Of a stretch of 64,000 bases of DNA, positions 10,284-47,151 are shown piece after piece. The DNA comes from a virus. Every line of letters starts with the position of its first letter. Positions within the stretch are counted from its first letter, which is position 1. The notes below the pieces were generated by a model. It had not been told where the DNA came from. It did no database searches and saw only the letters and a list, made by a program, of their open reading frames with translations. Location: IMG/VR virus record IMGVR_UViG_3300043470_000815; one strand, 5' to 3'. The position numbers and the translations under genes were made by a program.

Positions 10284-10493
10284 TTATACAAATTTAACAT
10301 TAGGATAATTTGATAAAATATTTATAATTACATTGTAATTGACACCCTTTGATTCAGCGTTAGTTATCAACGAATCTAGTTTTCTGTAAAAGTCTTTTGC
10401 TTTTGGGTCAGATATAGAAGTGTCTTCACGTAAAATCTGCTCATAAATTTTTCTTACACGATTTTCTAATAATTGATTTGTTTTTTTTTGCAT
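10284..10493 (-). CDS. Small putative head cargo protein (LLENRVRKIYEQILRE leader)
   Basis: 69 aa, lies between the two 65 bp repeats. Confidence 0.6.
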   Translation of the reverse strand: MQKKTNQLLENRVRKIYEQILREDTSISDPKAKDFYRKLDSLITNAESKGVNYNVIINILSNYPNVKFV

Positions 10494-10517
10494 GTTGTTC
10501 CTTAATTATTTGATATG

Positions 10518-10582
10518 AATTGTATATTGATTGCCTATTAAAAAGCAATATATTTTATTATAAATATGTTTTATTTTTGAAA
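10518..10582. repeat. 65 bp direct repeat, copy 2
   Basis: See 10211-10275. Confidence 0.95.
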
Positions 10583-10588
10583 CCGTTT

Positions 10589-10894
10589 TTAAAATTGTTT
10601 ATCCCTAAAATAATCTTCCACATTGCTATGATTTAGTGGAAAGGGTATTCTTAATCGTATGCCTACCGGAAGTCGTAATGTAGGACTACTAATTTTATTT
10701 GCACGTGCAATTATAACCCAATATCGTACATCACCATATTCAGCAGCGGAAATTAAATCTAATCTATCACTGATTTTTGTAATAATATATTTATCACTAT
10801 TTCGCGGTGCGATATTTGGATAATATAAAGTAGAATAGCGACGCTTTCCATCTTTATCTTTTATTATTTCAGCAAATTCTTCGTAGCGTTGCAT
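10589..10894 (-). CDS. LysM/tail-X-like baseplate protein
   Basis: DRLDLISAAEYGDVRYWVIIARANKI...LPVGIRLRIP is the LysM/gpX pattern. Confidence 0.75.
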   Translation of the reverse strand: MQRYEEFAEIIKDKDGKRRYSTLYYPNIAPRNSDKYIITKISDRLDLISAAEYGDVRYWVIIARANKISSPTLRLPVGIRLRIPFPLNHSNVEDYFRDKQF

Positions 10895-11008
10895 CTAATT
10901 TGAAATTATTTGACTTGGGTTGGGTGTTAACAGTTTTTTATTGGATGATAATTTTAATCCACCCAACCTATGTTCCCAAAATAAAATTAATTGATTTTTG
11001 GTTATAAT

Positions 11009-11473
11009 CTAACCTTTAACCGTTTGTATAATTATTTGTTTTATTTTTTCATCCAATTCACGCATTGCTGCTATAATTTTAAAACTCATTTGTTGGGTGA
11101 CAGTTTCTAAATATTCATCAATATCACCTTCCATCCTAGTTCCTAAATTATCATTATTTTTGAATCCAATCTCATACGCTTTTAAAATCTTTTGCATTTT
11201 TGGATTAGCAGAAATTTTATTAATTTTGGGTTCACCGCCACCATAAATAGAAATAGATACAGATATTTTACCATCCAAGGCTGGTTCTAATTTAACACCA
11301 TCGGCAAATCCACCATTAAAATACTTTCCTTCATATTTTAAAGTTTCGTCTTTTTTAGGTTCGGTAGATTGTTGCGGCTGTTGACTTTGGTCGTCGGTAG
11401 CAGACTTAGATGATTGGCCGTTTGGGGGTTGATCTTCACCTTCCAATTCTTGTAGTATATGTCTTAACTTCAT
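11009..11473 (-). CDS. Putative head cargo protein (MKLRHILQE leader)
   Basis: Shared leader, Gln-rich linker, unknown C-terminal domain. Confidence 0.55.
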   Translation of the reverse strand: MKLRHILQELEGEDQPPNGQSSKSATDDQSQQPQQSTEPKKDETLKYEGKYFNGGFADGVKLEPALDGKISVSISIYGGGEPKINKISANPKMQKILKAYEIGFKNNDNLGTRMEGDIDEYLETVTQQMSFKIIAAMRELDEKIKQIIIQTVKG

Positions 11474-11478
11474 ATAAA

Positions 11479-11796
11479 TTAAAACGAATTTTTTATTTTT
11501 TGATATTGTACATCATCAAATTTGGATTTTGCTATATTTAGCAATTTATTATATATAGAATTACGATATGCTTGTAATTCAGGTGTTAATGATCGTTCCA
11601 ACATGTGTATTTCTTCCACATACTCCATAATCTTAATGTATTTTGGTTGGTTAACCATTTTTGCTAATACCGCAATTGCACCAGTATGGTCGTTTTGTTG
11701 TGTTAATTTATTAATACTTGGTACAACATCTGCTTCCGTTAAAATCTGTTTATAAATTTTACGAATTTTATTTTCTAAAATTTGTTGTTTAGTCAT
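11479..11796 (-). CDS. Putative head cargo protein (ILENKIRKIYKQILTE leader)
   Basis: Shared leader motif; rest unknown. Confidence 0.55.
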   Translation of the reverse strand: MTKQQILENKIRKIYKQILTEADVVPSINKLTQQNDHTGAIAVLAKMVNQPKYIKIMEYVEEIHMLERSLTPELQAYRNSIYNKLLNIAKSKFDDVQYQKIKNSF

Positions 11797-12022
11797 TATT
11801 TAATTCCTTTCGGGTTTGATTATAAGTAGCACGTTCGTTTTGGATTCGTATCCGATCCGATTTTTTTTGGTATGCACGGTTGTCAGATAACTGTTCAACT
11901 ATTTTATTATCCTTTAGTATTTTTTTCCATTGACGAAGTGCAAATGTTAAATCGCCATTGACGGCAACTGAATACGGCGAACCTTGAATTAAGGCATTAT
12001 ATTGTTTTGATTTGATGTTCAT
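11789..12022 (-). CDS. rpsU: Ribosomal protein bS21 homologue
   Basis: 77 aa, basic. VAVNGDLTFALRQWKK...RAYQKKSDRIR...RATYNQ fits the bS21 pattern (V-V-x-x-G-x-x-x-ALRxxKx...YxKxS). Location among head genes matches the described bS21 phages of Bacteroidota. Confidence 0.78.
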   Translation of the reverse strand: MNIKSKQYNALIQGSPYSVAVNGDLTFALRQWKKILKDNKIVEQLSDNRAYQKKSDRIRIQNERATYNQTRKELNND

Positions 12023-12068: not shown

Positions 12069-12425
12069 TTAATTGACATCATAATATCGACTTAATCCCG
12101 CACCAATATCTTCATAACACGATTCAAGTCTTTGTTGTAATTGTGTAAGTTCTTTTGATGTTTGTTCAAATACTTTATAAGATTCTTTAAGACGTTTTAT
12201 ATCTCTATTTGTCGTTATATTATCGAACCACCCATCCGTTTCTTTAATTGTAAATCCCTCGGCAGCACTTATTAAATTACCAATTTGTTGTGTAATTTCA
12301 CGTAAATTATTTGATCTATATATATCATTTTTATACGCTGTAAATTGCTTGACAGATTCTAAGAATGCGTTGCGTTCTTCTTTAGAATACGCAATTTCAT
12401 TTTCTAATAGGTATCTTTTTTTCAT
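12069..12425 (-). CDS. Conserved head-region protein, function unknown
   Basis: 118 aa helical ORF between the protease and bS21. Confidence 0.55.
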   Translation of the reverse strand: MKKRYLLENEIAYSKEERNAFLESVKQFTAYKNDIYRSNNLREITQQIGNLISAAEGFTIKETDGWFDNITTNRDIKRLKESYKVFEQTSKELTQLQQRLESCYEDIGAGLSRYYDVN

Positions 12426-12454: not shown

Positions 12455-13111
12455 TTATTTCTTATTGTGCATTATGCAACACACATTCGTCATTGAGCAT
12501 AGTATTTCTTGAAGTAATAAATCTATTGTTTCGGGGGTTTCGGTATGAATAAGTTTTCTATCATAATTTTCTGTTATTGCCATTTCAGCATAATGGGTGG
12601 ATGGATTTGAGACTACATCACAGGCCGAAATTAGTTCAAAATCGTCTTGAACTTCAACTAATTCCTGTTCACCACTTTCTTTCAATGGTTGTACGCTTCC
12701 CATCCCCCGCGAACTTTGACCAATACGATAACCAGCCAATAATATTTCACGGACAATGTTACCTGATGGTGTTTTTAATATTTCAATATCTGCATATACT
12801 TCATCATTTTTCCATTTAATATCCATTATTGCTTGAGCGATATTTTTAACGGAAACTAAATTCGCTTCATCCCCGCTGGGGTGATCGCATTCCCCGTATG
12901 CCATTTTAGCCTTAACCATTGACATGTGTTCGTTAATACTACGTTCTAAAACACGTTTAGGATAAACCCTACCATTCTTGTTTGGTGCGTCCGCACGTTG
13001 AATAAGTACATTTTTTAAAATAAGCCTACCATCATTATTTTGAATAGATTCTAATAAGGTAGGTTTTTCAATTGCTATTAACGATGTTCGTTCTATTAAT
13101 AATTTTTTCAT
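12455..13111 (-). CDS. g21: Prohead core protease (gp21 family)
   Basis: QRADAPNKNGRVYP, GECDHP (His), GQSSRGMGS (Ser), DVVSNPS. Start taken as ATG 13111 (MKKLLIE); the track uses 13132. Confidence 0.93.
   Translation of the reverse strand: MKKLLIERTSLIAIEKPTLLESIQNNDGRLILKNVLIQRADAPNKNGRVYPKRVLERSINEHMSMVKAKMAYGECDHPSGDEANLVSVKNIAQAIMDIKWKNDEVYADIEILKTPSGNIVREILLAGYRIGQSSRGMGSVQPLKESGEQELVEVQDDFELISACDVVSNPSTHYAEMAITENYDRKLIHTETPETIDLLLQEILCSMTNVCCIMHNKK
13087..13111. repeat. 25 bp exact direct repeat, copy 1 (protease start)
   Basis: ttcgttctattaataattttttcat is identical to 13757-13781 and encodes MKKLLIER on the minus strand. Confidence 0.95.
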
Positions 13112-13755
13112 CTTTTCCACGAATTTAACCATTCACCTTTAGGCAATTTTTTATATTGTTTCATAACTATACGCTTACTACCCGACAATTTAGCAAGTTG
13201 GTCTTGATTTACTTTATATAAATGTGTACCACTTGTAAAACTATATAATGGATTCGGTAATTCACCTAACGCCCGTTCTGCGTAATCTCTAGCACGATGT
13301 GAACCAAATGATACAAACACTTCACCGGGCGACAATTCGGTTGCGGATTCTTCTTTAATCACACGTCGAATCATTTCGGATAATGATTCTTTTTGAGTAT
13401 TGGTCGAATTTTTATATAAAATAATATTACTATAATTATTTTTATCCGATGCTTTAATCAAATCACTAAAATCACTTATTAATTCCTGCCTATTTTCCGC
13501 TTTGGATATATCGTCTTTCCCATCAGTAATTTTATTATATGTTAAATTTTCAAAATCTAATACAAATTTAGTATTAACTAATTTATCAAATATTGTTCCT
13601 TTTAATGTTGGTTTGTCATCTGTTACATTAAATGGTTTACATATTAATTCTACCTTCCCAACAGATTGACTGGTTAACATTTTTATAATGGTTAAAAAAT
13701 CACCATTTTTGGTAATAGTTTTAAGGGTGGTTGGGGATATTATAGTTTTGGTCAT
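13108..13755 (-). CDS. Putative head cargo polyprotein (internal ESLSEMIRRVIKEES)
   Basis: Two unknown domains separated by the shared motif; flanked by the 25 bp repeats. Confidence 0.55.
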   Translation of the reverse strand: MTKTIISPTTLKTITKNGDFLTIIKMLTSQSVGKVELICKPFNVTDDKPTLKGTIFDKLVNTKFVLDFENLTYNKITDGKDDISKAENRQELISDFSDLIKASDKNNYSNIILYKNSTNTQKESLSEMIRRVIKEESATELSPGEVFVSFGSHRARDYAERALGELPNPLYSFTSGTHLYKVNQDQLAKLSGSKRIVMKQYKKLPKGEWLNSWKR

Positions 13756-13784: not shown

Positions 13785-14561
13785 TTATCCAGTTATTTCT
13801 ATTATTGCATCAGCGATTTCATCCATTTTTCGGATATATATTCTAAATTTATCGTTTTTAGTCAATTTTTGTATTATTTCCAAATTATTCATTGCTGTAT
13901 AAAAATTTTTATAAAACGTATCAACTTCTTCTTGTGTGATTTTATCATAAGATTCTTCTTTTAATACACGTCTAATCATTTCAGATAATGATTCTTGTGT
14001 ATTTTTAGGATTTGCTTTCCAAACACTTGAACCATCCCCATCCAAATTATATTTTTTTAAAAAATCACCAACCATCCTTTTATCTGTAAAGGCATCAAGG
14101 AAATCACCTAACTGAATCCGTTTACTACCAATGCCTTGCAACAATGTAAGTGGATCAATTTTATTATCATCTAAAAATTTTTGAACGTATTCTTTACGTG
14201 TTCCTGTTCGTTGTGCAATTTCTTGAGCATAGTCAACTTGGATTGGTTGTTTTTTAGATTTACCGTATGCTTCGGATTTAGGTTGGGCGGTTGGTTGGAC
14301 TTTATATTTCTTTTTACGGTTGTTATTTAAATTGTATATATAATTTATACCTTTTTCATTTTCAACATATAATAAAGTTCCACCCATCTTTTTGGAAGAT
14401 AAATCATCTTTAATATATTCTAAAATATCGCCCGGTTGCATTTTGGCAGCATATTCGTCGAATTTGTTTTGCAATTGGGTTTTATCAAATTTATTCAATT
14501 TAAATACATCCGTCCCAAATGGTTTATCGTTTGCGGTGTAATTGATAATATAATTTACCAT
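13785..14561 (-). CDS. Putative head cargo polyprotein (internal ESLSEMIRRVLKEES)
   Basis: The motif is near-identical, also at DNA level (13951-14002 vs 13346-13401), to that in the adjacent gene. Confidence 0.55.
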   Translation of the reverse strand: MVNYIINYTANDKPFGTDVFKLNKFDKTQLQNKFDEYAAKMQPGDILEYIKDDLSSKKMGGTLLYVENEKGINYIYNLNNNRKKKYKVQPTAQPKSEAYGKSKKQPIQVDYAQEIAQRTGTRKEYVQKFLDDNKIDPLTLLQGIGSKRIQLGDFLDAFTDKRMVGDFLKKYNLDGDGSSVWKANPKNTQESLSEMIRRVLKEESYDKITQEEVDTFYKNFYTAMNNLEIIQKLTKNDKFRIYIRKMDEIADAIIEITG

Positions 14562-14562: not shown

Positions 14563-15003
14563 CTAAGTATTAAACTCCCTTAATTTAGATGAAACACGCC
14601 CAAGCCGTTGGTCTATTTTCTGAAATTTTCCAAGTGTACCTTTCCAAAAAACGCTTTGATCTGAACCTGATTCTAGTTTTAGTTTTGTTGCATGATTAAT
14701 CATTTGTTCGACTTCACCAAGCATTTTGTTAATTTGTATAATATTATTATTAATCTTTTGACGTTCTGTTAAAGAATCATCCGTTTTATATGTTTTATAT
14801 GAAATTTCATTAATGCTACGTTCAATCATATCTTCAATTAATTCTGAATATGATTCATCATCAGGCTTTCTAATCTTTTTACGAAAAGCATTTGGGGTAG
14901 CATAGAACTCCCCCCCACCAGTGACATTATCTTCTTCAACGGTTGGCATTATTTTTGTAATAGTTTCTATTAAACTTTTCATTTTATTTTTAATACATTC
15001 CAC
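14563..15003 (-). CDS. Conserved head-region protein
   Basis: EDNVTGGGEFYATPNAF motif and coiled-coil C-terminus; likely start MKSLIE (ATG 14982). Confidence 0.55.
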   Translation of the reverse strand: MECIKNKMKSLIETITKIMPTVEEDNVTGGGEFYATPNAFRKKIRKPDDESYSELIEDMIERSINEISYKTYKTDDSLTERQKINNNIIQINKMLGEVEQMINHATKLKLESGSDQSVFWKGTLGKFQKIDQRLGRVSSKLREFNT

Positions 15004-15876: not shown

Positions 15877-17691
15877 TTATAATTCTTGGTCTAAAATTTG
15901 ACTTTCATTTAACATATTTAGTTCCAAATCAGTTGTTACTTCTTCATTTAATGATTGTTTCGTGTTTTTAGTCATTTGTTTTGTTATCGAATTTACAATA
16001 TTTTCCTTAACACCTTTATCTAATTCACGTCTCCCCAACGGGTCACGACCAAACGCTTTATCTTTGACAGTTTCAAAAGATTTATACTTGTATGGTTGTC
16101 CTTCATTGTTTTCACGTTCATCGGGACTGTATAATTTTTCTAAACTTTCACTATCAGTTGCATTGAATTTAGAAGCAACCTGCATAGATGCAATATCGTG
16201 TGGTGTACCAAATGTTTTTCCTGTTACTTTAGGATCATTACCTTCTTCCGTAATTTGTGTATAACGGAATTTTTCTTTTAAGAAATTAGGCAGCCTTAAT
16301 TTTTCCTGTTTCCATTCACTTTCAGAAAGACCTAAAATATTTTCATATATATAAATATCCGACAATAAATTAGATTCTAATATATTTGCAATTAAGTTGA
16401 ACTTTTCATTTAATAGGTCAATTTTTTGACGTTCGTAAATTATGGATGGACTTGTTAATGATAATTCAAATCCAAGCAAATCTTCGTCTTTATGACCTTG
16501 TGAATGTAAATGTACAATAGCAATTTTATACAGTTCGGACACAAAGATTTTTTGATACCTTTCAATCATTTTGGCAAATCTAATGTCTTCCGCCGAAAGT
16601 GCCGTTTTTGCAGAACTTTCATCATATCCCAAATATGCTTTAGGAATTTTTAACGCAGCCATCATTTTAGATTTAAAGTATTCAACGTCGTCAATTTGTC
16701 CGTCGTTACCAAGTCCCGGCAATGTTTCGATACTTGTTCCCGATTTTCCACCCCGCACAGGTAAATAATAATCTTCTTGTGAATTTAATAAATTATATTT
16801 TAAATTTATTTCACCTGTTGACGGATCAATGTATGGAATTTTTTTCATTTCGGAAATGATTTGTTCCATGTGGCTTTCAATCTCGTTTGGTGGAATATTA
16901 CCAACATCAATTTTAATAATACGACGTTCGGGAGCTCTCATAATCCGATGCAATAACATAGCATCTTCCATCAATTTCATTGACTTGTAATCTTTTCTTG
17001 CACCTTCCAAGGATGACCGACCATACGGTAAAAAATTGGTATCTGTAATTAATCTAAAATGTGCTATTTCATATTGATTAAATGTACTTTGATTACTATA
17101 ATTTTGTCCATCCCCCTCATATCGAAATTTAACTTCGTTTGGGTCTTCACGTGTTCCTTCCTCCCTAACCATTAAACTAGGGTGGATTGGTAATACATTT
17201 ATTACACCGAACTTTTCACGAATTTCTAAGTATAAAAAGAAATCACCATATTTTGCCATTTGTCGAAACCAATGCCACATATTAAATTCTATGTTCATTA
17301 TATCGTAAAACAAATTATGTAATATTTTCTTTATTTCATTATCTTCACTATGTATTACTAACAATTCACCCGTCGCACTTACACTCGTGGATTCGTCAGC
17401 AATTATATCAAGTGCCGATGTTACAATACCGTCACTGTCCATCAATTCATAATCCAAATAAAGCATTTTTCGTAATGCTTCAATTTCATGGTTTACAAAC
17501 GATGAACCCCACCCACTGAACGACGCTGGAGAACGTCCATTCCGCCAACGTGCCTTTGCATTTTGGGGATCGGGACTTCCAGTACTTTGCGTTTTATTTA
17601 CGTCGAATGTCTTTAATCGTTTACCGGGTCGTTTGGTAACAACTACATTTCGTGTAAAAAGTCGTGAAAGTGTTTGTTGAAAGGTTGTCAT
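15877..17691 (-). CDS. g20: Portal protein (T4 gp20 family)
   Basis: LMEDAMLLHRIMRAPERRIIKIDVGNIPP, EDYYLPVRGG, IETLPG, IDDVEYF, ALKIPK, EDIRFAK. Confidence 0.97.
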   Translation of the reverse strand: MTTFQQTLSRLFTRNVVVTKRPGKRLKTFDVNKTQSTGSPDPQNAKARWRNGRSPASFSGWGSSFVNHEIEALRKMLYLDYELMDSDGIVTSALDIIADESTSVSATGELLVIHSEDNEIKKILHNLFYDIMNIEFNMWHWFRQMAKYGDFFLYLEIREKFGVINVLPIHPSLMVREEGTREDPNEVKFRYEGDGQNYSNQSTFNQYEIAHFRLITDTNFLPYGRSSLEGARKDYKSMKLMEDAMLLHRIMRAPERRIIKIDVGNIPPNEIESHMEQIISEMKKIPYIDPSTGEINLKYNLLNSQEDYYLPVRGGKSGTSIETLPGLGNDGQIDDVEYFKSKMMAALKIPKAYLGYDESSAKTALSAEDIRFAKMIERYQKIFVSELYKIAIVHLHSQGHKDEDLLGFELSLTSPSIIYERQKIDLLNEKFNLIANILESNLLSDIYIYENILGLSESEWKQEKLRLPNFLKEKFRYTQITEEGNDPKVTGKTFGTPHDIASMQVASKFNATDSESLEKLYSPDERENNEGQPYKYKSFETVKDKAFGRDPLGRRELDKGVKENIVNSITKQMTKNTKQSLNEEVTTDLELNMLNESQILDQEL

Positions 17692-17715: not shown

Positions 17716-19131
17716 TTACAATAGCCATTTTAAACTTTCGGAATGATTGCCTATTCTTTGCTCCCATGCTGGATGACTTTGTTTGGCTGGATTGTAAACG
17801 TTTTTATGAACATTAGTTATTGATTGTTTAACTAATTCAATACCCATCTGCCTAAGTCGTAACGCGGTATCACGCACATATAAAAACATACAAAAACATA
17901 GTACTAAATCGTCATTGTAGCCGTTTTGTGCTTGTGGTTTACCATTGATCCACATAAATACACTGAATTGATTTATAAGTCGTTTAGAGTGTATAATTGG
18001 ACTTTTTTCACGGGTGTACATTTCTAGTTTAGAAATCATTACAGGTCGTAATACGTGGGTGGTTGTAAAGCCCGGAATCATATCTTCTTTATTTTTCAAA
18101 TCATACCGTTTCATTAGATGTATGTTTTCATCTAAATAAGGATCGTTCTTATAACTATAATATAAATTTTTGTAGCCTTTATCTAAGCACACTTGAACGG
18201 TTGACCACCCAATGTTTTTATTGTCAATTACTAATAACGCATCGTTGTATTCAGTCGCCACACTTACCAACATATTACCAAACATATTAGTATCAATTTT
18301 ACCTTCATATTCAGCCACTTGTTCCAAAGATTCCACGTCCATGACAATAAATGCACTACTATCTTCACCATCCCCACGTGCAACGTCAGCGACAACACAA
18401 TAAGATTTTGTATAATCGGGATATTTCCAAATCCAATAATCACCACCAATACCACGCCGCTCGGTTGGGTCGGTAGTTTTTTCGCGATAATATGCTAATA
18501 TATCAGATTCTATTACAGTGTGACCCGATGTTTCAAAAACGCAATCATTCTCTTGGGCAGCCATACGCTTACCCATCAATTCATCTTGTAAATCACGCCA
18601 TTTTTGGTCACGGTCAGGATGTCGTTTCCAATCTAAACGAATTGGGTTAAATGCACCAAATCCATCTTCTTTAATACCTTCTTCTGCCTGACACCAAAGT
18701 TTATAAAATATACCTTGAGCACCGTTTGGAGTTGATAAAATTATTGCATTACCACCTGTTGCCAATGTCATTTGAGCCGATGTCCAAATTTCATTAGCAC
18801 TTTCCATAAACGCACAATTATGACTAACTAAACCATTCGTGAAATATTCATTATTTAATTTAACATCTATTACATCATATACATAAAAATCCCCTTCCTC
18901 ATAAGAAATTTCACATATTACGTCACCCCCCCACAATTCATCACCAATCAAACAAAAACTTGCTTCTAAAAATTGTCCGTTTGGATATTTTAATAAATGA
19001 CCACTTGTACATTTTAATATATTATTGTTTGTTTTAATTGTAAATAAAATATCAGTGGTAGTTCGTTGTACACCATCAAAATCACTCCAACCATCAGGGG
19101 TTAATATTAAATAGTCATTATTATTTTTCAT
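17716..19131 (-). CDS. terL: IntC (105 aa) fused to the terminase large subunit C-terminal part
   Basis: Intein block B (CTSGH), VYDVIDV and VSHN|C junction, then CAFMESANEIW, LSTPNG, and the nuclease domain VADVARGDGEDSS ... NDDLV. Confidence 0.93.
   Translation of the reverse strand: MKNNNDYLILTPDGWSDFDGVQRTTTDILFTIKTNNNILKCTSGHLLKYPNGQFLEASFCLIGDELWGGDVICEISYEEGDFYVYDVIDVKLNNEYFTNGLVSHNCAFMESANEIWTSAQMTLATGGNAIILSTPNGAQGIFYKLWCQAEEGIKEDGFGAFNPIRLDWKRHPDRDQKWRDLQDELMGKRMAAQENDCVFETSGHTVIESDILAYYREKTTDPTERRGIGGDYWIWKYPDYTKSYCVVADVARGDGEDSSAFIVMDVESLEQVAEYEGKIDTNMFGNMLVSVATEYNDALLVIDNKNIGWSTVQVCLDKGYKNLYYSYKNDPYLDENIHLMKRYDLKNKEDMIPGFTTTHVLRPVMISKLEMYTREKSPIIHSKRLINQFSVFMWINGKPQAQNGYNDDLVLCFCMFLYVRDTALRLRQMGIELVKQSITNVHKNVYNPAKQSHPAWEQRIGNHSESLKWLL
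18817..19131 (-). mobile_element. Split intein, C-terminal half
   Basis: Has its own ATG at 19131; ends His-Asn at 18817; +1 residue is Cys. Confidence 0.9.
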
Positions 19132-20197
19132 AAAATTGCCTCATTGCATATTTTACGGTTGGATGGTTGGTTAAATCAATTTTATTGATATTTTTTTTGA
19201 ACCATTTATTTGTTATCAGAACATATTTTAAATTATTGTCTTTGGCATATTTTTTTGCAAATTTATATTTTACTAAATTTCTTTCAGTATTTTTCTCCGA
19301 ATCGGGTTTAATTTCGTATATAATTTTATTTATAGGATCGTAGAAATCTACAATATAATTGTGCCAATTATCTTGATATGTATATTTTATTCTAATTTTT
19401 TCATATTCTAATTGTGGATTACACAACCAAAAAAACGCATCCCAATTACTTCTAAATTTTTTAACAGTTCCATCTTCCAAATTTACAATAGCATTCCAAC
19501 GTGTCCATGAATTAGTTATACATGGAGTAAATTCACCATTTGCAATCATTAACTTCATTGTTTCTGAATGCTTTTTATGAGTGGCTTCTGTATATATGAA
19601 TGGACGACGTTTTTTAAATTCGTCTGAATTACTTGTAATTTTATTGGATTCTGATAATTTTTTTTTCGTTTCTAATGTATGCCAAGGTTTTCCGTTTGAT
19701 CTCCTAGTTTCTATACCTTTTTGAATTGATTCTTTGGAAAAAACTTGATTTTTTCGATTTATACGCATTTTCATTCGTTGTTCATCTGAAAATGTTCTAG
19801 TTTCAAGATAATTCATAAATCGGTCTTTAATATTTTTCTTATTTTCATCAGACATATTTTCATAGGCTTTTTTACCACTTTCCGAACCCTGCTTACGTTT
19901 ACATTCTCTATTGGTGCAATTATTTCGGAATAACGCACTATTTTCATTGAATGCTGTTTTATTATCACAATATTTACATTTTACAATATCAGTTTTGTAA
20001 TGTTTAATATAAGTTATTCGTTCTTTTAATGATACATTGTAACTATTTAAAAATGTGGTAGATGAATATATCATTTTATAAATATATTGTATATCATTTT
20101 TTACATACCATTGTTCATTTAATGCCCAATGGATCATTTTATCATTCTTAAAAATTTTATCAATTATAATATTATAATCATTCATCTGTATATTCAT
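19121..20197 (-). mobile_element. Free-standing putative homing endonuclease (NUMOD3-like repeats plus TnsA-like PD-(D/E)XK domain)
   Basis: HTLETKKKLSES NUMOD3-like motif; FRSNWD...YIVDFYD...YEIKP nuclease motif; CKYC/CTNREC zinc ligands; sits between the intein halves. Confidence 0.8.
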
Positions 20198-21421: not shown

Positions 21422-21659
21422 TAGATTTTAATTGTTTCATATTTGACATAAATGATTCCAGTTTGTTTTCTTCGATACCAACCAACCCCGCAAATTTAAT
21501 AATTGCATGATATTTGTCTAACGGCATTTTTAATTCATTTATCGCAGTGATGAATGATGGTGTATTTTGTAATTTATCAAAAAGTAACAATATGGTAGCC
21601 GTACCATCGGATTGCTCTTGTAAAAGTTTTTTTAGTTTCATGGATAATATATTAATCAT
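21414..21659 (-). CDS. Small putative cargo protein (MKLKKLLQE leader at the second Met)
   Basis: TATTTATA motif at 21674-21681 just upstream. Confidence 0.5.
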   Translation of the reverse strand: MINILSMKLKKLLQEQSDGTATILLLFDKLQNTPSFITAINELKMPLDKYHAIIKFAGLVGIEENKLESFMSNMKQLKSNG

Positions 21660-38233: not shown

Positions 38234-38919
38234 TATATGCCTTTATATTTTTCTTTAATTTGTTGATATGTGTTATAAACCCGCTTTTTGAATTTTTTAT
38301 TATAAATATCATCAAATTTATCAGATAACTTTTGCGGAAACATTGTTTTAAAAAATGTCAAAAATGAATTAAAATCTACTAAAAATTTGTTAGCCAATTG
38401 TGAATTATCTTCAAACATATTTTCAATACTTTCAAGTGTTTCGATAAAAAACGCATTAAATTCGGCGGGACTACTTAAATATTTTGTAATATTTCCAGCA
38501 TCTAACTGTTTGGCAGATGAAGAACGAATATCCGATTTGTAACGTTTAGTATCTAAATAATGTGTAAATTCGTGTACAAACATATTTTTATTCAATCGAG
38601 TATCTGCATACATTAAATTAAATGGTTCAATTAATATAGGCAACACAATTACACCATCATAATTAGAGGTTTTTAATTTAGAAAATCCAGCATTACCGAT
38701 ATTTTTATCTGCTAATACAATTATTAATTTATTATATGTATTGTCTATTTTACTAAAAGGTATTATAAAACCTCCCCACCGATCCGAACGTTCCCATTTA
38801 TTTGAATTTTCCGCCGCATTCTTTATGTATTCTTTTAATTTTGTAAACGCATTTCTTGATTTTAAAACTAATTTTGAATCAGATTCATAATCATATTCAA
38901 GTAGTTGCATTAATTTCAT
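38233..38919 (-). CDS. Putative zinc metallopeptidase (MKLMQLLE leader)
   Basis: FVHEFTHYLD (HExxH) with downstream YLSSPAEFNAF third-ligand region. Confidence 0.7.
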   Translation of the reverse strand: MKLMQLLEYDYESDSKLVLKSRNAFTKLKEYIKNAAENSNKWERSDRWGGFIIPFSKIDNTYNKLIIVLADKNIGNAGFSKLKTSNYDGVIVLPILIEPFNLMYADTRLNKNMFVHEFTHYLDTKRYKSDIRSSSAKQLDAGNITKYLSSPAEFNAFFIETLESIENMFEDNSQLANKFLVDFNSFLTFFKTMFPQKLSDKFDDIYNKKFKKRVYNTYQQIKEKYKGI

Positions 38920-40178: not shown

Positions 40179-40445
40179 TTAATAACCTTGTTTCTTTAAA
40201 AACGCATTAACGATTTTAAAATATGCTGAATACGCATCTTGAGGGGATTTAGAATTGGTTGGATCGGCATCGTCCATAAAAGAATCTTTATATTGACGGA
40301 AAGATACATTAGGTTCTTTATCTTTTATATATTTCTTCAAACGATTGTCAATATCGCTATTATTATTCGACAATCTATCTATATCAGATTCTTCCTTAAT
40401 TACCCGCCTAACAATTTCTTTTAATGATTCTTTTTTATTTTTCAT
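40179..40445 (-). CDS. Putative head cargo protein (ESLKEIVRRVIKEES leader)
   Basis: Shared leader. Confidence 0.5.
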   Translation of the reverse strand: MKNKKESLKEIVRRVIKEESDIDRLSNNNSDIDNRLKKYIKDKEPNVSFRQYKDSFMDDADPTNSKSPQDAYSAYFKIVNAFLKKQGY

Positions 40446-40476: not shown

Positions 40477-43400
40477 TTATTGTACTTTCAAATTACCACC
40501 CAACGGGTCGTCTGTATAATATAAACTGCTTTGATTTGACACAAAAATACTAACAACAGGGCCACCATCAATCGTATTTGGTGAATCAATATTTATTCCA
40601 GCACCTTCCAACCTAGTCCCATAAAATCTTTTATAGTTTTCAGTAGCACATGATTCAAGATGCTGATAATCAGTACAAACCAATGAACGTGAATAATGCC
40701 AACCATACGATTTACTAACAGCCGTGTACCAATCCCTTAAATATTGTGTTTGAAATGTACCACTTGAACTATAATGATATATTACTTTTTTATAACAACA
40801 ATTTAACGGATAATGGTCAATATAACTTTGTGTAATTTCCTGTGAACCTGAAAAGCGGGTTGGTAATGTATCAAATTCTATATTAATATTATTTGGTAAT
40901 TCACCAGCCACTTCAAAATTGGTTTCAAGTGATGCTGTATTGTATTTATAAGTATATGTAAAATCTATTTTTTCATCAATAGACGCGGTGAAATATTTAT
41001 ATTTAAAACCAAGTTCCGTTGAACTGGACGCAATTGTTTCAAAAGTTAAATTTTCAGCACTTGATGAATAGACATCTAAATTATATTCAGTTTCGTATTG
41101 GGGATTAGTTATTTCGGGACGTTTTGTAACACGTACTTTATTAATATGTAATACATCATCTTCGATAAGAATACCACCAATGTAATCCGCCCTACCCGGT
41201 ACTAATTGTTTCAGTTGGTCAAAAAACGTAAAATCAAAAATGCTAAATAATTTAATAAATTTATTTACATTATAGTTTTGTTGATATTTCTGAAAATATT
41301 TATTTGAAAATCTATTTAATTCCGTGTAACCTTCTTCAAATTCGTATTGTGGATCGGCAATATAATCGTCTAATTCCGTAAAACCCGAATGATTATAAAT
41401 ATCATTATTTAACTGGTCGGTTGGACTAAAAACAATTGCCAACCTATTAGTATCAAATGCGAAAGTATCATTTTTAGATATATCAGATCGTTGTTTTGGA
41501 TTTAAATCACGTATTAATTTACTTTCATCTAAACGTACTTTATTGGAACGTAATGTATTACCACCCACCGTTGGAGTGTCAATATAAAATGTTTCATTAG
41601 TTGAAACATATTGTGTCTTTTCATCACCAAATGTCCAATTCTTAAACGATGCAGTTGTATATTGTGAAACTTGACGGTTTGGGTGCGAAGATGAAACATT
41701 GACATAAACGCTATGATCCCACCTTTGGTTATCTGTACCAAGTGGAAAATATCTATATAAAGTATAATACGACGAGGTTGGTGAATTACCATTATACGCC
41801 GCTGGATTTCTTGTATGACTAATTAATGTTGCATCACTTAATGATTCAAAATATTCTTTATATGATGTTATATTTCCTACAAACCTGTTAGAATTACTAC
41901 CAGTTGTACCACCCAACAATATACTTCCAGTTTCCCATGTATCGGTTATTCCAATTGACGAAATCCAATTAAATTTATCGGAATGTGATATTTTTCCATG
42001 CGAACAATCCTTAGAAGATTGAACCGTTATTTCTAAATCAATAGTAGGTAATAATAATATTTCAACGTCTCTTGGTAAACCCCACTGGTTGGTTGGTGCT
42101 ACTGCAAAAGTTTGTCCAATTTGAACTCCACCCAAAGATGCACTAAAATACGAATCATAAGTTGTTACTGACCCTGAAATAAATTTAGAAATATAAGGTG
42201 CTAAACCGTATGGGTTGGACGGACTTACAAAATAACTTTGTGTAAATGGCTGCCCTGCCAATGAAGCACTCGCATCAGTTGAATAGTGGTTGGTTGGAAC
42301 ATCGGATGATTTAACAACGCCCTGACTATAACCATAATCATTGACACTTGATAAATAATATCTTGAACCTGAAACACCTAAATCCGTATCATTATCATAA
42401 AATGTAAAGTTTTCACTGACATTTTTATTTACAATCGAAACATTCCAAAAATCATTATTATAAATTGGTAATAATGAACTGGATACTGTAATCGAGTTTG
42501 AATTATTATCTTTTAAATTAAATTTTAAGTAGCCATATTCATAAGAACCTGAATATTTATTTCCAAAATGGTGTAACGATAAATTGGAATTTAAAACAGT
42601 TCGATCAACACCTTCAATTGCCCAAATTGACATTGACAACGATGATGAATATGTCGTGGAAAATCTAAAATCAATACTTTCAGGAACTTGCACAGTCCCC
42701 AATGAAGAAGTTACCGTTCGACGTGGTAATTCAATCCAGTTTGATCCCGTGAAATTAGATTTAAAATAATATCGGTCATCTATTAGGGTTGGATCGGCAC
42801 TCGGCCCACCATATTCCTTAATTGAAATTAATGTTTGTGGTATTCCATAAATCGACATTAAGGATTTAACAGAACGCATTGTTCCTTTAGTTTTATAAAG
42901 GTGCGGTAAATTGTTAATAATCCTTCGCCATATTTGATGCGTTTGTCCTTCGTGCGTGTAATTTACTAACGATCCTGACTGAATTAATGTTCCGTCTTTT
43001 TCAGTGCCTAATTTATATTTCCATAAATCGGATAATTGTCGTGTATTTTGTAAATCCCACCCAAACGATTTAGCAATATAAAAAGCAAGATCATTACTAA
43101 AACCACGTTCAGGATGTTCATCACGTTCATGGATTTGTGGTAAGGCTTTTATATACGAATAAATTGTGTCATAATGTTGACCAATCATATCGGCAAATAA
43201 AATCAAATTACTGTTACCCTCATCCATTATTATATGTTCGGGAATTGCCCAATACAAACGATTCATATTTGTTTGATCGTAGGTTTGTGCAACGGATTTA
43301 ACACTGTCATACCATTGTGTTACAATAGATGATGTTAAATTATAACTAACGGTTTTATTCGCAATTATTTGCTTTGGGAATGGTGTAATACTTCCAGTTA

Positions 43401-44502: not shown

Positions 44503-44505
44503 TTT

Positions 44506-45498
44506 TTAAATTAATTTTTTAATGTATTCAGTTATTTCATCTACACTATTTGCAGTTTTAGTAAATGTGGTTATTTTTCCAAACAACTCGGCGGTTTGGG
44601 CATTTTCTTCATAAGTTTTATATGGTAATCTATCAGATTTTCCATTAGTAAATAAAGTAAATGACCAATAAGGCATTTTCATAAATGTTCCACGAGTGAA
44701 TTGTAAACTTACACGGTCAGGTTTAAATTGTTCAAATCTTTTAAATGCGACATTTCCTTCAACACCCATACCATATTTTTTTGTCAATATTTGAAACATA
44801 TCTGCTTTACTAAATTTTTTCGTAGATGATTTTGTTTCAAATTTTAATAATGTCGCTTTAGGCAGTACTAATTCGGGATTTTGGAAAACATCGTGGTTTC
44901 GTGTTTGTGAATATTCACGAACTGCGATTTTAACCTTTTTACCTTTAAATAATACACTTGTAGATATTCCTAATGGATAACTTATATTAGTCATTCCATC
45001 ACCCAACCCACCTGAATTATATAAAACATTTGTAATATCCACACTCATCGAAATATTAAAAATAATATCACGAGTATCATCTGCAAATTCCATGACTACG
45101 ACTGCCGTATATTTTCCCCAACCAAGTTTAGAACTTAAAAGTTTATAGGTAAAATCAGTATTATAAATATTTTTTAAATGTTCTTTGTAGGCATTGGTAT
45201 CAAATTCTTTGGAAATTTTATCTAATATATTGTTACCAGTTGTTTCGTATTTATCTTCACGTGCTTTATAATCTATTTGAGCAGATACATTTTTACCTTG
45301 TTTTTGAAGTAATTCATACGCATCTTGAACATCGTTGAATTGTGCATCAGAACCGCCTTTGTCAGGATGTGCTTTCATTGATGCTGTTCTAAAAGCGGCT
45401 TTCAGTTTGGTTGCATCGGAAACATCGGAAATGTCAATATTAAATAATTTTAATGCTTGATCTACTGTGATTTCGGTTAATATTGTTCTAAGTTTCAT
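44506..45498 (-). CDS. J-domain (DnaJ-like) protein with MKLRTILTE leader
   Basis: ALKLFNI...LKAAFRTASMKAHPDKGGSDAQFNDVQDAYELL; intact HPD motif. Confidence 0.88.
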   Translation of the reverse strand: MKLRTILTEITVDQALKLFNIDISDVSDATKLKAAFRTASMKAHPDKGGSDAQFNDVQDAYELLQKQGKNVSAQIDYKAREDKYETTGNNILDKISKEFDTNAYKEHLKNIYNTDFTYKLLSSKLGWGKYTAVVVMEFADDTRDIIFNISMSVDITNVLYNSGGLGDGMTNISYPLGISTSVLFKGKKVKIAVREYSQTRNHDVFQNPELVLPKATLLKFETKSSTKKFSKADMFQILTKKYGMGVEGNVAFKRFEQFKPDRVSLQFTRGTFMKMPYWSFTLFTNGKSDRLPYKTYEENAQTAELFGKITTFTKTANSVDEITEYIKKLI

Positions 45499-45527
45499 AA
45501 TATTTTAGATAATTTAAAAAGTACGTG

Positions 45528-45610
45528 TGGTAAATGAACTTCATTTCCTTCAAGAAATCAAATGTGAAATTTGATGCAACAAAGATACGACCTTTATTAT
45601 TACTGTGCAA
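45528..45610 (-). promoter_or_regulatory. Bacteroidota-type promoter plus conserved leader, copy 2
   Basis: TTGC (45610-45607), 19 nt spacer, TATCTTTG (45587-45580); leader 45528-45576 matches 5320-5367. Confidence 0.8.
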
Positions 45611-45617
45611 CTTTTTT

Positions 45618-46436
45618 TTAATCTTTTTTAGTATTATTTTGTATCGCTAATTCTGCTTGGGCTTTAGCGGCATTTGCTTCCGCTATTGCTGCCTCACTTG
45701 CTGCTTTAGCCGCTGCCGCAACCGCTTGGGCTGCATTGGCTTCTGCTTTAGATTGTTCGGCTTGGGCTTTAACAGCCGCTACTTGGGTGGCCGCATTTGT
45801 ACTGGCGGTTGATGCTATTGCCGCACCTGATTGAACATTTTGATTGATTTGTGTTAAAATTTGGTTGGTTGTTTGATCTGACATAGCAACTGTCCAAACC
45901 CCCGATTTATCAGGTATCATTCCATTTTTAGGAATATCCATACATTGTGCCTCGGTCAAAACACGCACCGATAATAATGTTTGATTTCGTTCTTCCAACA
46001 AAACTTCCAACGTTTTATAATTAGGTATTTCTTTTGCAATTCCATCCACCATTACATAATAAACATATTGTTCCTTTGGTAATGGTACGGAATTTTCAGT
46101 AACACATCTAAATATTTGACCATCGGGTAATGTAAACAAATCTTCAATTATCGGTTCGGGTTTGATAAAATATGAAAAATTTGTATCTAAAAATGTGTTT
46201 ATATCAGAATCGGTAACAATTGTTTTTCTACCAATAAAGTTTATATATAAATTGGGTTGGGTGGTTGGTACGATATAAACATTCGCACTATTTCTAAACG
46301 ACAAAGTATAGTTTTGTTCATCAATAACATTTTGTGGAATATAGTCATACGTCTGCCCTTCCACTGGTATTGAAATCAGTTTGGCGGTAGATGAAATATT
46401 ATCAACATATTGAATATTATTTATTGTTACTTGCAC
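45618..46436 (-). CDS. Putative virion protein with an Ala-rich coiled-coil C-terminus
   Basis: AAKAASEAAIAEANAAKAQAE tail; tail-gene context. Confidence 0.45.
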   Translation of the reverse strand: MQVTINNIQYVDNISSTAKLISIPVEGQTYDYIPQNVIDEQNYTLSFRNSANVYIVPTTQPNLYINFIGRKTIVTDSDINTFLDTNFSYFIKPEPIIEDLFTLPDGQIFRCVTENSVPLPKEQYVYYVMVDGIAKEIPNYKTLEVLLEERNQTLLSVRVLTEAQCMDIPKNGMIPDKSGVWTVAMSDQTTNQILTQINQNVQSGAAIASTASTNAATQVAAVKAQAEQSKAEANAAQAVAAAAKAASEAAIAEANAAKAQAELAIQNNTKKD

Positions 46437-47151
46437 GATTTTTATTTTTCAATTCTCTTGAAATCCACTGTAATGCAATTGGATTTTGGGGTGGTGAAGT
46501 TAAAAATTTATTAATAGTTTTATGTACATTTGCATCAATAGGCGTACTGTCATTGTTATCGACAATAGTCATTTTATTGCTAAACATTGACTGGAATTTA
46601 CCCAAATTATTTTGAACTTCCTGCCACGATTTTACTACCACTGGTTCGGGAACAACTCGGTCACGTTTTAAATTACGTTGTTTAGCAATTTCCAGTGATG
46701 TATTTACAAATATTAAATAACAATCATAACCAATATCTTCTAATATCTTTTTTTGTGCGTTGATTTTATCGGCATTTTTACCAGTACCATCAATCAAAAT
46801 TCCAAGACGGTTTTCGGTAAATTTATTTTGCATATAATCAGTGGTTTTCTTCGCACCCTCCCGACCCGGATTAATCACTTTGTCGTAGGTATCCCTGTCA
46901 GTTTGGAATATAGAATCTAATTCAGATGTTTTGATATTGTTGGTCTTTAAAAATTTTTCAAAAGCAATATCGGAATTTATTAATTTTATACCTTGACTTG
47001 AAAATTTATTTAAACTATTCAGACCGAATAATTTATTTACCACGTATCCTTTACCCGACCCGGGGCCTCCAGCGATAAAAATGGCTTTGAAAATTCCCGG
47101 ATCGTAAACGCCCTCGGTTAATACTTCTTGTAAAATGTGTTTTAGTTTCAT
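46417..47151 (-). CDS. Zeta-toxin/AAA_33-like P-loop kinase with MKLKHILQEVLTE leader
   Basis: IFIAGGPGSGKG Walker A, LINSD, ILIDGTG, RNLKRDRVVP lid. Confidence 0.75.
   Translation of the reverse strand: MKLKHILQEVLTEGVYDPGIFKAIFIAGGPGSGKGYVVNKLFGLNSLNKFSSQGIKLINSDIAFEKFLKTNNIKTSELDSIFQTDRDTYDKVINPGREGAKKTTDYMQNKFTENRLGILIDGTGKNADKINAQKKILEDIGYDCYLIFVNTSLEIAKQRNLKRDRVVPEPVVVKSWQEVQNNLGKFQSMFSNKMTIVDNNDSTPIDANVHKTINKFLTSPPQNPIALQWISRELKNKNRASNNK

What the first reader, a model, noticed from the sequence alone, without database searches (positions are those of the whole stretch)
10284..47151. Shared Glu-terminated leaders on about 17 unrelated proteins: a candidate capsid-loading and protease-release cargo system
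Seen: three recurring short amphipathic motifs, all ending in (I/L)-x-E or EE. Class A, MKL(R/K)xIL(Q/N/L/T)E: 11473, 30739, 31684, 45498, 47151, with variants at 21641, 38919 and 39162. Class B, (L/I)LEN(R/K)(V/I)(R/K)(K/R)IYxxILxE: 10493, 11796, 32109, and a variant inside 33719..34951. Class C, SLxE(M/I)(I/V)RRV(I/L)xEE: 35280, 40445, and inside 13108..13755 and 13785..14561. What follows the motif is unrelated from gene to gene: J-domain, zeta-like kinase, HExxH peptidase, ParB-like domain and unknown domains. These genes are interspersed among structural genes. Established: T4 internal proteins and Alt carry a roughly 10 aa capsid-targeting sequence removed by gp21 at (I/L)-x-E, and a gp21-family protease is encoded here. 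Inference: these are portable address tags that load an enzyme payload into the prohead, release it by cleavage and inject it with the DNA; internal copies would turn ORFs into polyproteins. Caveat: MK-L starts are common in AT-rich genomes.
Basis: partly seen in the sequence, partly recalled or inferred. Interest (0 to 1): 0.82.

Follow-up and report, generated by a model that had tools for sequence, protein, structure and literature searches.

The report
Capsid-loading leader tags on phage proteins
An uncultured T4-like lake phage starts at least 13 otherwise unrelated proteins (a kinase, a J-domain protein, a ParB-like nuclease and small unknowns) with one of three short leader peptides ending in the cut site of its head protease. 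This is most likely an enlarged, three-tag version of the phage T4 signal that loads proteins into the capsid.

Summary
Three leader peptides recur on 13 to 14 proteins that share nothing else: six class A (MKL[RK]xILxE), three class B plus one embedded copy, and four class C. Chance expects about 0.005 class A starts; six are seen. Two listed variants (38919, 39162) are not significant.

The phage has a T4-type head module: Gp23 capsid protein, Gp20 portal, acidic scaffold and an S77 protease with His and Ser kept. Its scaffold, protease and predicted capsid maturation site carry the same (I/L)-x-E ending, as T4 head proteins do.

Comparative evidence favours portable propeptides:
- Orthologues in the closest relative carry a different tag or none.
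- One tag-plus-cargo unit is fused inside a larger protein.
- All 120 kinase homologues examined keep (L/I/M)-x-E|G before the core, although the N-terminal extension is 4 to 94 residues long.
- AlphaFold leaves the leader detached from the kinase fold.
- A homologue in Agrobacterium phage Atu_ph07 was found by mass spectrometry in virions, mainly at fragment size.

Cleavage, packaging and injection are untested for this phage. I file it as a new variant of the T4 capsid-targeting system. This scan has reported the same kind of system on other phage genomes.

The parts
11447..11473 (-). Class A leader MKLRHILQE of the 154-aa protein 11009..11473. A Q/P-rich linker and a conserved domain follow. 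The gene lies in the head module.
   Evidence: The orthologue in relative G001 lacks the leader and linker.
30713..30739 (-). Class A leader MKLRRILNE of the 134-aa unknown protein 30335..30739.
31658..31684 (-). Class A leader MKLRNILLE of the 169-aa unknown protein 31175..31684.
45472..45498 (-). Class A leader MKLRTILTE of the 330-aa J-domain protein 44506..45498 (HPD motif present).
   Evidence: Pfam DnaJ 30.5 bits against a cut-off of 27.8. All 11 full-length homologues keep MK[LIQ][KR]xILxE before the J domain.
47125..47151 (-). Class A leader MKLKHILQE, followed by a second site VLTE|G, of the 244-aa zeta/PNK-like P-loop kinase 46417..47151.
   Evidence: Pfam Zeta_toxin 46.8 bits. 120 of 120 homologues have (L/I/M)-x-E|G before the core. 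AF2 pLDDT is below 50 for residues 1-12. Foldseek top hits are 1gvn and 4gp6.
21615..21641 (-). Class A leader MKLKKLLQE at Met7 of ORF 21414..21659; the probable true start is 21641.
   Evidence: The G001 orthologue carries a different leader, MKLMPLYQQIKEE.
10425..10493 (-). Class B leader MQKKTNQLLENRVRKIYEQILRE of the 69-aa protein 10284..10493, in the head module next to the scaffold gene.
   Evidence: 44.5 bits
11734..11796 (-). Class B leader MTKQQILENKIRKIYKQILTE of the 105-aa protein 11479..11796, in the head module.
   Evidence: 42.1 bits
32053..32109 (-). Class B leader MNKLLENRIKRIYIKILSE of the 141-aa ParB/Srx-like protein 31684..32109 (IVDGHHR motif).
   Evidence: Homology to 968 proteins starts right after the tag. 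Homologues carry class-A-like leaders or none. The G001 orthologue has no tag.
34469..34519 (-). Embedded class-B-like tag KLENLVRRIYNELTINE (aa 145-161) inside the 410-aa protein 33719..34951, followed by a small domain.
   Evidence: aa 156-231 are homologous (E 5e-13) to a separate 92-aa tagged protein of G001, with the junction E|QYT aligned. The profile score is marginal, 7.8 bits.
35227..35280 (-). Class C leader MIKNKSLQEIVRRVLNEE of the 110-aa protein 34948..35280.
   Evidence: 35 bits
40389..40445 (-). Class C leader MKNKKESLKEIVRRVIKEE of the 88-aa protein 40179..40445.
   Evidence: 35 bits
13348..13386 (-). Internal class C motif SLSEMIRRVIKEE (aa 124-136) of the 215-aa protein 13108..13755, which lies between the portal and protease genes (the position of T4 gp67/gp68).
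13953..13991 (-). Internal class C motif SLSEMIRRVLKEE (aa 191-203) of the 258-aa protein 13785..14561.
   Evidence: In relative L001 the part after the motif is a separate 77-aa protein that starts with a class-C-like leader. The N-terminal domain matches a separately tagged G001 protein.
12455..13111 (-). Prohead protease (Peptidase_S77, gp21 family). The likely start is Met8 of the ORF, giving MKKLLIE|R. There is also a C-terminal LLLQE|IL.
   Evidence: Pfam 82 bits; PDB 5jbl E 5e-12. His and Ser align with T4 H85 and S140. Relatives start MKQLLIE/MKQLLID. T4 gp21 starts MNEPQLLIE.
9249..10145 (-). Scaffold-like acidic protein (pI 4.3) that starts MSKLLKE|A.
   Evidence: Position between protease and capsid genes and composition. 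42% identical to the G001 orthologue against 77% for the capsid protein. No family hit.
7571..9235 (-). Major capsid protein (Gp23 family). The predicted maturation site QLLENQAVQLLKE|A (aa 45-56) is encoded at 9065..9103.
   Evidence: Pfam 232 bits. The site is conserved as LLENQA[KR]Q[LI]V[KST]E|A in about 60 relatives. It lies near the start of mature T4 gp23 in the alignment.
15877..17691 (-). Portal protein (Gp20 family).
   Evidence: Pfam 249 bits

Best explanation
The three motifs are removable head-targeting propeptides of the T4 kind.

Proposed mechanism:
1. During prohead assembly the leader binds the assembling scaffold core. The scaffold here is acidic (pI 4.3), and 8 of 11 predicted mature cargo proteins have a pI of 7.9 or more.
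2. The S77 prohead protease then cuts after the Glu of the terminal (I/L)-x-E. Class C ends (I/L)-x-E-E.
3. The scaffold is degraded and leaves. The freed cargo stays in the head and is probably ejected with the DNA.

Likely cargo includes a zeta/PNK-like kinase, a J-domain protein, a ParB/Srx-like nuclease and small proteins of unknown function. Tags embedded inside longer ORFs mark fusions that the protease would split.

Shown here: the tags and their non-random recurrence; the T4-type head genes and an intact-looking protease; the same ending on the phage's own head proteins; tag gain, loss and swapping among orthologues.

Inferred: binding to the scaffold, cleavage, retention in the head, and injection.
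For: (1) Recurrence far above chance on proteins that are otherwise unrelated. Codons differ between copies.

(2) T4-type head module with an S77 protease whose His and Ser are conserved.

(3) The phage's own head proteins end the same way: scaffold MSKLLKE|A, protease MKKLLIE|R, capsid LLKE|A. T4 gp21, gp22, gp24, gp67 and Alt, read from the T4 genome, do so too. The T4 CTS is a 10-19 residue N-terminal propeptide, and gp21 has LIE-9 (PMC9026906).

(4) Portability:
- The 154-aa and ParB-like orthologues in G001 lack the tag. The 81-aa orthologue has another tag.
- G001 has its own tag families on at least 8 proteins.
- ParB-like homologues carry class-A-like leaders, none, or (here) class B.
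- A tag-plus-cargo fusion has its junction conserved.

(5) In the kinase family, P1 is E and P3 is L/I/M in 120 of 120 homologues, while extension length varies from 4 to 94 residues.

(6) AF2 gives the leader low confidence and leaves it detached.

(7) Atu_ph07 gp53 (87 kDa), which holds the homologous kinase domain, was found in virions with 31 peptides. It was most abundant in the gel band that otherwise holds 21-24 kDa proteins.
Against: There are no virion, cleavage or injection data for this phage or any close relative.

The timing of expression is unknown. The T4 late-promoter motif is not enriched, and tagged genes also sit next to replication genes.

The resemblance of class B to the capsid propeptide, and of class C to scaffold aa 33-46, is not statistically significant.

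Hydrophobic moments are unremarkable.

The invariant L-x-E|G in the kinase family could be a folding constraint rather than a cut site.

Atu_ph07 is a distant jumbo phage. Its processing is inferred from gel-band position only.

A J-domain protein or a kinase could equally act in the cytoplasm of the producing cell.
Confidence: 0.65

Rival explanations
1. The leaders are protease-cut propeptides of head-assembly proteins only. The tagged proteins would be core or scaffold accessories, like T4 gp67/gp68, that are degraded or expelled at maturation. They would not be cargo kept in the head and injected.
For: Five tagged genes lie inside the head module, between the portal and scaffold genes. Class C is internal in two proteins at the gp67/gp68 position. 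T4 gp67 and gp68 start with similar leaders.
Against: Enzymes such as the kinase, the ParB-like nuclease and the J-domain protein are not plausible scaffold parts. They are encoded far from the head module. The Atu_ph07 kinase homologue is retained in mature virions.
Confidence: 0.12
2. The leaders are docking peptides for a hub unrelated to the capsid. Candidates are a chaperone, a host protein or a phage regulator. The final Glu would be part of the binding motif, not a cut site.
For: No direct evidence of cleavage exists. Tagged genes are scattered, some beside replication genes. The leaders are conserved as an integral N-terminus across the large kinase and J-domain families.
Against: This does not explain why the scaffold, the protease and the capsid maturation site carry the same ending. 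It does not explain why the ending equals the gp21 consensus. It does not explain why tags change together within a genome while the scaffold is the fastest-evolving head protein.
Confidence: 0.1
3. There is no function. The motifs would reflect AT-rich codon bias at gene starts, undetected paralogy, or an mRNA-level translation-start element.
For: MK starts are common: 25% of ORFs have Lys at position 2. One similar start, MKLKHLLLY (59380..59784), lacks the Glu.
Against: Expected 0.005 against 5-6 observed, and 0 of 20,000 shuffles reach that. The 16-17 residue class B and C motifs score 34-44 bits. Synonymous codons vary and nothing is shared upstream. Copies also occur internally. The proteins are unrelated beyond the tag.
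Confidence: 0.02

Closest known systems
Phage T4 capsid targeting sequence (CTS) on IPI, IPII, IPIII and Alt, removed by the gp21 prohead protease (Mullaney and Black 1996; reviewed in PMC9026906 and PMC3012670)
   Same: A short N-terminal leader sits on unrelated proteins. It ends in (L/I)-x-E. The head module is homologous (gp20, gp21, gp22-like, gp23). The scaffold and protease N-termini resemble the leader. The cargo set varies between related phages.
   Different: There are three distinct leader classes in one phage, two of them 16-23 residues long with a basic centre. At least 13 tagged proteins lie in 64 kb, against four in the whole T4 genome. Copies are embedded inside larger ORFs. 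Cargo types (zeta/PNK-like kinase, J-domain, ParB-like) are not known as T4 head cargo. Leader sequences differ even from a relative with 77% capsid identity. Nothing has been tested experimentally.
Propeptide processing of head and ejection proteins in giant phages phiKZ, 201phi2-1 and SPN3US (cut after Glu by gp21-related proteases; PMC9026906, PMC5694885, PMC10052503)
   Same: Many head-internal proteins are trimmed after a Glu by a gp21-family protease. Propeptides are thought to target proteins into the prohead.
   Different: In those phages the motif is a minimal S/A/G-x-E and the propeptides are long and dissimilar. No shared, portable leader sequence recognisable by eye has been described there.
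Phage P1 Dar proteins and 'polyvalent proteins' of phages (Iyer et al. 2017, PMC5512222; PMC9024508)
   Same: Counter-defence-type domains, including ParB-like nucleases and kinases, are packaged in heads. Several modules can be joined in one polypeptide and processed.
   Different: P1 uses long N-terminal regions and a hierarchy of Dar proteins, not a short shared tag with a protease site. Here most cargo are single-domain proteins, each with its own tag.
Atu_ph07 gp53 (Agrobacterium jumbo phage; virion proteome in PMC6102473)
   Same: It contains a kinase domain 40% identical to 46417..47151, preceded by ..VTE|G. It was detected in virions, mostly at fragment size.
   Different: The domain is internal in a 778-aa multi-domain protein of a 490-kb phage. 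The cut sites were not mapped.

Membership tests
T4-type CTS / gp21-propeptide system | The phage encodes a gp21-family (Peptidase_S77) prohead protease with the catalytic residues | tested here: met
   Pfam PF03420 82 bits; 5jbl E 5e-12. His in ECDHPS and Ser in QSSRG align with T4 H85 and S140.
T4-type CTS / gp21-propeptide system | T4-type head module: portal gp20, scaffold, capsid gp23 with an N-terminal propeptide | tested here: met
   Pfam Portal_T4 249 bits and Gp23 232 bits. An acidic scaffold-like ORF lies between them. The scaffold itself has no family hit.
T4-type CTS / gp21-propeptide system | A short (10-19 aa) N-terminal leader shared by otherwise unrelated proteins | tested here: met
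   Six class A (9 aa), three class B (19-23 aa) and two N-terminal class C (18-19 aa) leaders. Similarity is limited to the tag.
T4-type CTS / gp21-propeptide system | The leader ends in the gp21 cleavage consensus (L/I)-x-E | tested here: met
   All class A and B leaders end I-L-x-E. Class C ends (I/L)-(K/N)-E-E. The same ending is seen on the scaffold, the protease and the capsid site.
T4-type CTS / gp21-propeptide system | The leader is removed by the protease inside the prohead | not testable with these tools
   Needs virion proteomics or an in-vitro cleavage assay.
T4-type CTS / gp21-propeptide system | The leader is necessary and sufficient for encapsidation, and the cargo is ejected with the DNA | not testable with these tools
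   The only indirect support is a distant homologue of one cargo found in Atu_ph07 virions.
T4-type CTS / gp21-propeptide system | Sequence homology of the leaders to the T4 IP leader itself | not tested
   The T4 ip genes were not fetched. Only T4 gp21, gp22, gp24, gp67, gp68 and Alt N-termini were read. They show the same pattern but no alignable homology.
Zeta toxin / AAA_33 P-loop kinases (protein 46417..47151) | Family profile match above the curated cut-off, a Walker A motif and the kinase fold | tested here: met
   PF06414 46.8 bits against 22.3. GGPGSGKG is present. Foldseek hits 1gvn and 4gp6 at E about 1e-6. The substrate is unknown.
J-domain proteins (protein 44506..45498) | DnaJ profile match and an HPD motif | tested here: met
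   PF00226 30.5 bits against 27.8. KAHPDKGG is present.
ParB/Srx-like nucleases (protein 31684..32109) | Family profile match and the DGxHR active-site motif | tested here: inconclusive
   IVDGHHR is present. The window protein itself matches no ParB family in Pfam even at E up to 1. However, 12 of 32 aligned homologues hit ParBc_2 and one hits ddrB-ParB.
Zincin (HExxH) metallopeptidases (protein 38233..38919) | A family profile match in addition to the HExxH motif | tested here: not met
   HEFTH is present, but there is no Pfam or PHROG hit. Its leader MKLMQLLEY is also not a significant tag.

The most novel reading that the evidence does not exclude
The three leader classes are separate address channels, each copying a different surface of the phage's own assembly proteins. 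Class A would copy the N-termini of the scaffold, the protease and (in relatives) the capsid protein. Class B would copy the last helix of the capsid propeptide (LLENQ..LLKE). Class C would copy scaffold helix SLQRMISARLSEE. The phage could then set the place and copy number of each cargo. The tags would co-evolve rapidly with the scaffold, so the whole injected arsenal of uncultured T4-like phages could be read from sequence.
Probability: 0.2. Interest if true: 0.75.

Novelty: new variant of a known kind. Interest (0 to 1): 0.55.

Why it matters
If the leaders work as in T4, the set of proteins a phage delivers with its DNA can be predicted from sequence alone in a very large group of uncultured aquatic T4-like phages. 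That group has 597 or more capsid relatives in IMG/VR, and 2,709 homologues of the leader-bearing kinase. The likely cargo (a zeta/PNK-like kinase, a ParB-like nuclease, a J-domain protein) would be new kinds of first-minute effectors. Swappable tags would also explain how such phages exchange their arsenal quickly. The tags could serve as loading handles for engineering non-coli phages. Cultured relatives with shared leaders make the idea testable: Flavobacterium phage immuto, Pelagibacter phage HTVC008M and Methylophilales phage Melnitz.

Tried and rejected
- **T4 late promoter.** TATAAATA gives 25 matches against 19 expected, mostly on the non-coding strand, so it gives no handle on late versus early expression.
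- **Mimicry of head proteins.** I tested with tag profiles whether class B copies the capsid propeptide and class C copies scaffold aa 33-46. The scores are about 1-3 bits and not significant, so I keep this only as a resemblance.
- **Amphipathicity.** Hydrophobic moments are not above shuffled tags.
- **Class B and C in relatives.** Profiles find nothing in 80 relatives' head regions. Class A gives only weak hits.
- **Strict class A DNA pattern in five large relatives.** It matches once in each of two genomes, so the expansion and the exact sequences are lineage-specific. A complete 178-kb relative with 55% capsid identity has only two tagged proteins.
- **Searches that returned nothing.** The search for related loci with the kinase returned nothing in IMG/VR. 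The megablast of 20 kb against cultured phages gave no relative. No whole genome is held for the window.
- **Literature dead ends.** There is no paper on Mel-JY01 in the library. The RsoM2USA proteome covered only the strongest gel bands. Papers since 2021 that mention the CTS concern only T4, P1 and giant phages, or merely cite the 1996 paper.
- **Rfam.** There are no matches in the window.
- **Internal tags in 33719..34951 and its G001 orthologue.** They are not at homologous positions. I therefore rejected 'co-variation at one site' in favour of independent insertion or fusion.

Full report
**What the window is.** All substantial ORFs lie on the minus strand and G+C is about 31%. Profile searches identify a T4-type head module:
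- major capsid protein Gp23, 7571..9235, 232 bits;
- an acidic scaffold-like protein, 9249..10145, with no family hit;
- prohead protease Peptidase_S77, 12455..13132, 82 bits;
- portal Gp20, 15877..17691, 249 bits.

Terminase, primase, an SbcCD-like nuclease and a baseplate wedge protein follow. The nearest cultured relatives by capsid protein are Microcystis phage Mel-JY01 (52%), Flavobacterium phage immuto (49%) and Rhodothermus phage RM378 (35%). IMG/VR holds at least 597 relatives; the closest has 77% capsid identity. Earlier notes of this scan describe the genome as an uncultured lake phage of about 187 kb.

**The observation.**
- Strict class A (MKL[RK]x[IL]LxE) starts five proteins. It also sits at Met7 of a sixth ORF, which probably starts there.
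- Class B starts three proteins.
- Class C starts two proteins and lies inside two more.

Profiles built from the members score 14-18, 36-44 and 34-36 bits on members. They score at most 8 bits on every other ORF of the window. From the window's own position-wise residue frequencies, 0.005 class A starts are expected and five are seen. None of 20,000 column shuffles gives more than one. All-against-all BLASTP shows that tagged proteins resemble each other only over the tag. The copies use different synonymous codons and share nothing upstream. The peptide is therefore what is conserved, not a DNA repeat or a start-region element.

The 'variants' at 38919 and 39162 are not significant. The claimed amphipathicity is not above shuffled controls.

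**The phage's own head proteins carry the same ending.**
- The scaffold starts MSKLLKE|A.
- The protease, from its likely start at Met8, starts MKKLLIE|R. Relatives start MKQLLIE. It also has LLLQE|IL near its C-terminus.
- The capsid propeptide ends QLLENQAVQLLKE|A. That site is conserved as LLENQA[KR]Q[LI]V[KST]E|A in about 60 relatives. It lies close to where mature T4 gp23 begins in the alignment.
- In most relatives the capsid protein itself starts M[DN][LI]K[NS]ILNE, which is a class-A-like sequence.

Read from the T4 genome, gp21 starts MNEPQLLIE, gp22 MLKEQLIAE, gp24 MAKINELLRE, gp67 MEGLIE and Alt MELITELFDE. The review PMC9026906 states that T4 internal proteins have 10-19 residue N-terminal propeptides that target them to the core. 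It says gp21 removes them, that gp21 itself has LIE-9, and that the CTS may be a general way for T4-like phages to load varied proteins. The window protease keeps the His and Ser that align with T4 H85 and S140.

**Portability.** I read the closest relative (G001, 127 kb) and a complete, more distant one (G004, 178 kb) in full.

G001 has its own tag families:
- RIKxLLxPLVEQILKE on five or more proteins;
- MKLxPLYxxIKEE on three;
- MKLKQLLLE on the J-domain orthologue.

G004 has only two tagged proteins. The expansion is therefore lineage-specific, and the tags are alike within a genome but differ between genomes.

Between the window and G001:
- the J-domain orthologues both carry class A;
- the 154-aa and ParB-like orthologues lack any tag in G001;
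- the 81-aa orthologue carries a different tag;
- the scaffold is only 42% identical, against 77% for the capsid protein.

Residues 156-231 of the 410-aa protein 33719..34951 are homologous (E 5e-13) to a separate 92-aa tagged protein of G001. The junction ...E|QYT is aligned, and the tag in front belongs to a different family in each phage. This is a tag-plus-cargo unit fused into a larger ORF, which is what the 'polyprotein' idea predicts. Likewise, the part of 13785..14561 after its internal class C motif exists in relative L001 as a 77-aa protein with an N-terminal class-C-like leader.

**Cargo families.**

*Kinase (46417..47151).* It matches Zeta_toxin and AAA_33. Its model resembles zeta toxin and polynucleotide kinase. 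It has 2,709 homologues. In all 120 that I read, the conserved core GV[YD]DPGI is preceded by E, with L, I or M two residues before. The N-terminal extension ranges from 4 to 94 residues and takes several forms. AlphaFold gives residues 1-12 a pLDDT below 50, while the rest of the model averages about 86.

Cultured carriers are Melnitz, HTVC008M (MIPFILKE|G), Atu_ph07 and RsoM2USA. In Atu_ph07 the domain lies inside the 87-kDa gp53, preceded by ..VTE|G. The published virion proteome lists gp53 with 31 unique peptides and 45.5% coverage. It was most abundant in gel band 9, the band in which proteins of 21-24 kDa peak (PMC6102473, Table S5). A fragment running from G253 to the next L-T-E would be about 23 kDa; that size is my inference.

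*ParB-like protein (31684..32109).* It has the IVDGHHR motif. Its 968 homologues align from just after the tag. Small homologues carry class-A-like leaders (MKLKDILES, MIKLIDILKE and others) or none, and here class B, always a few residues before RxDMPQI. Twelve of 32 hit Pfam ParBc_2. ParB-like domains are a recurrent part of the phage 'polyvalent proteins' proposed to be packaged (PMC5512222).

*J-domain protein (44506..45498).* All 11 full-length homologues keep the leader. T4-like Aeromonas phages have MSKMFDQLLE|S at the same place.

**Reading.** The most economical explanation is a T4-type address-and-trim system, enlarged to three leader classes and at least 13 proteins in this 64-kb window. 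What remains inference is binding to the scaffold, cleavage, retention in the head and injection.

I could not determine when the genes are expressed. The likeness of class B to the capsid propeptide, and of class C to scaffold residues 33-46 (SLQRMISARLSEE), is suggestive but not significant.

Rivals, in order of weight:
- propeptides of assembly proteins that are discarded at maturation;
- docking peptides for another hub;
- chance.

**Known or new.** The principle has been known since 1996 for T4. Glu-directed trimming of many head proteins is known for phiKZ-like phages. In the searched library I found no description of multi-class, lineage-specific leader families in distant T4-like phages. 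This scan has reported similar leader systems on other phage genomes. I therefore rate it a new variant of a known kind. A cultured relative, Flavobacterium phage immuto, has at least three proteins with its own 24-residue shared leader ending in L-(K/L)-E. That makes a direct test possible.

Noticed in passing
window 11789..12022 (-): A ribosomal protein bS21 homologue (Pfam Ribosomal_S21, 28.2 bits against a cut-off of 27) is encoded inside the head module, between the protease and the scaffold. It occupies the same place in Mel-JY01 (annotated RpsU) and in relatives L001 and L007.
   Followed up: partly
window 17716..20675 (-): The large terminase is in two ORFs: 20178..20675 holds the N-terminal part and 17716..19131 the rest. 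An endonuclease-like ORF (19121..20197, phrog_15427) lies between them in other frames. G001 has one uninterrupted gene. Rfam finds no group I intron. The start of the downstream piece (LILTPDGWSDFDGV) looks Hint/intein-like.
   Followed up: partly
L001 5628..7355 (= G001 41626..43353): The prohead protease gene of the closest relative is 575 aa instead of about 218. The window protease aligns to its two ends (window aa 80-220 to its aa 435-573). That leaves an insertion of about 350 aa near the catalytic His, possibly an intein.
   Followed up: no
window 25388..28537 (-): A single 1049-aa ORF matches both SbcD-like (aa 2-349) and SbcC-like (aa 148-1047) families. It is a fused gp47/gp46-type nuclease, also fused in G001.
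   Followed up: no
window 35247 and 40409 (-): The two N-terminal class C tags encode Arg-Arg-Val with the same AGG CGG GTA, using the less common Arg codons of this genome (AGG 78, CGG 56 of about 700). The two internal copies use CGA/AGA CGT GTG/GTA. This may only mean that the two N-terminal copies are the more recent pair.
   Followed up: partly
window 32119..33717, 35282..36730, 36761..38233 (-): Three large neighbouring proteins are paralogues. 35282 and 36761 are 45% identical over 388 aa, and the C-terminal third is shared with 32119. Small tagged genes are wedged between them, both here and in G001.
   Followed up: no
window 12069..12425, 14563..15003, 50681..51163 (-): Further head- or baseplate-adjacent proteins start with weaker leader-like sequences ending in (I/L)-x-E: MKKRYLLENE, MKSLIE (from Met8) and MTSEKIKRLVELMVAKEVKRLIPQIISE. 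They are not significant by the class profiles.
   Followed up: partly
L105 2688..3988 and L106 (Flavobacterium phage immuto, NC_055915): Three immuto proteins share a 24-residue leader, M(A/E)(D/N)(T)F(N/D)L(R/K)(S/K)FL(T/V)ENKLT..(L/I)L(K)E. One of them is annotated as cob(I)alamin adenosyltransferase.
   Followed up: partly
G004 (IMG/VR 178-kb relative), first 1 kb and last 3 kb: The ends carry tandem, degenerate repeats that read as K/V/L/A-rich pseudo-ORFs (..AHKVLLAHKV..). They swamped the tag scan and look like terminal-repeat DNA rather than genes.
   Followed up: no
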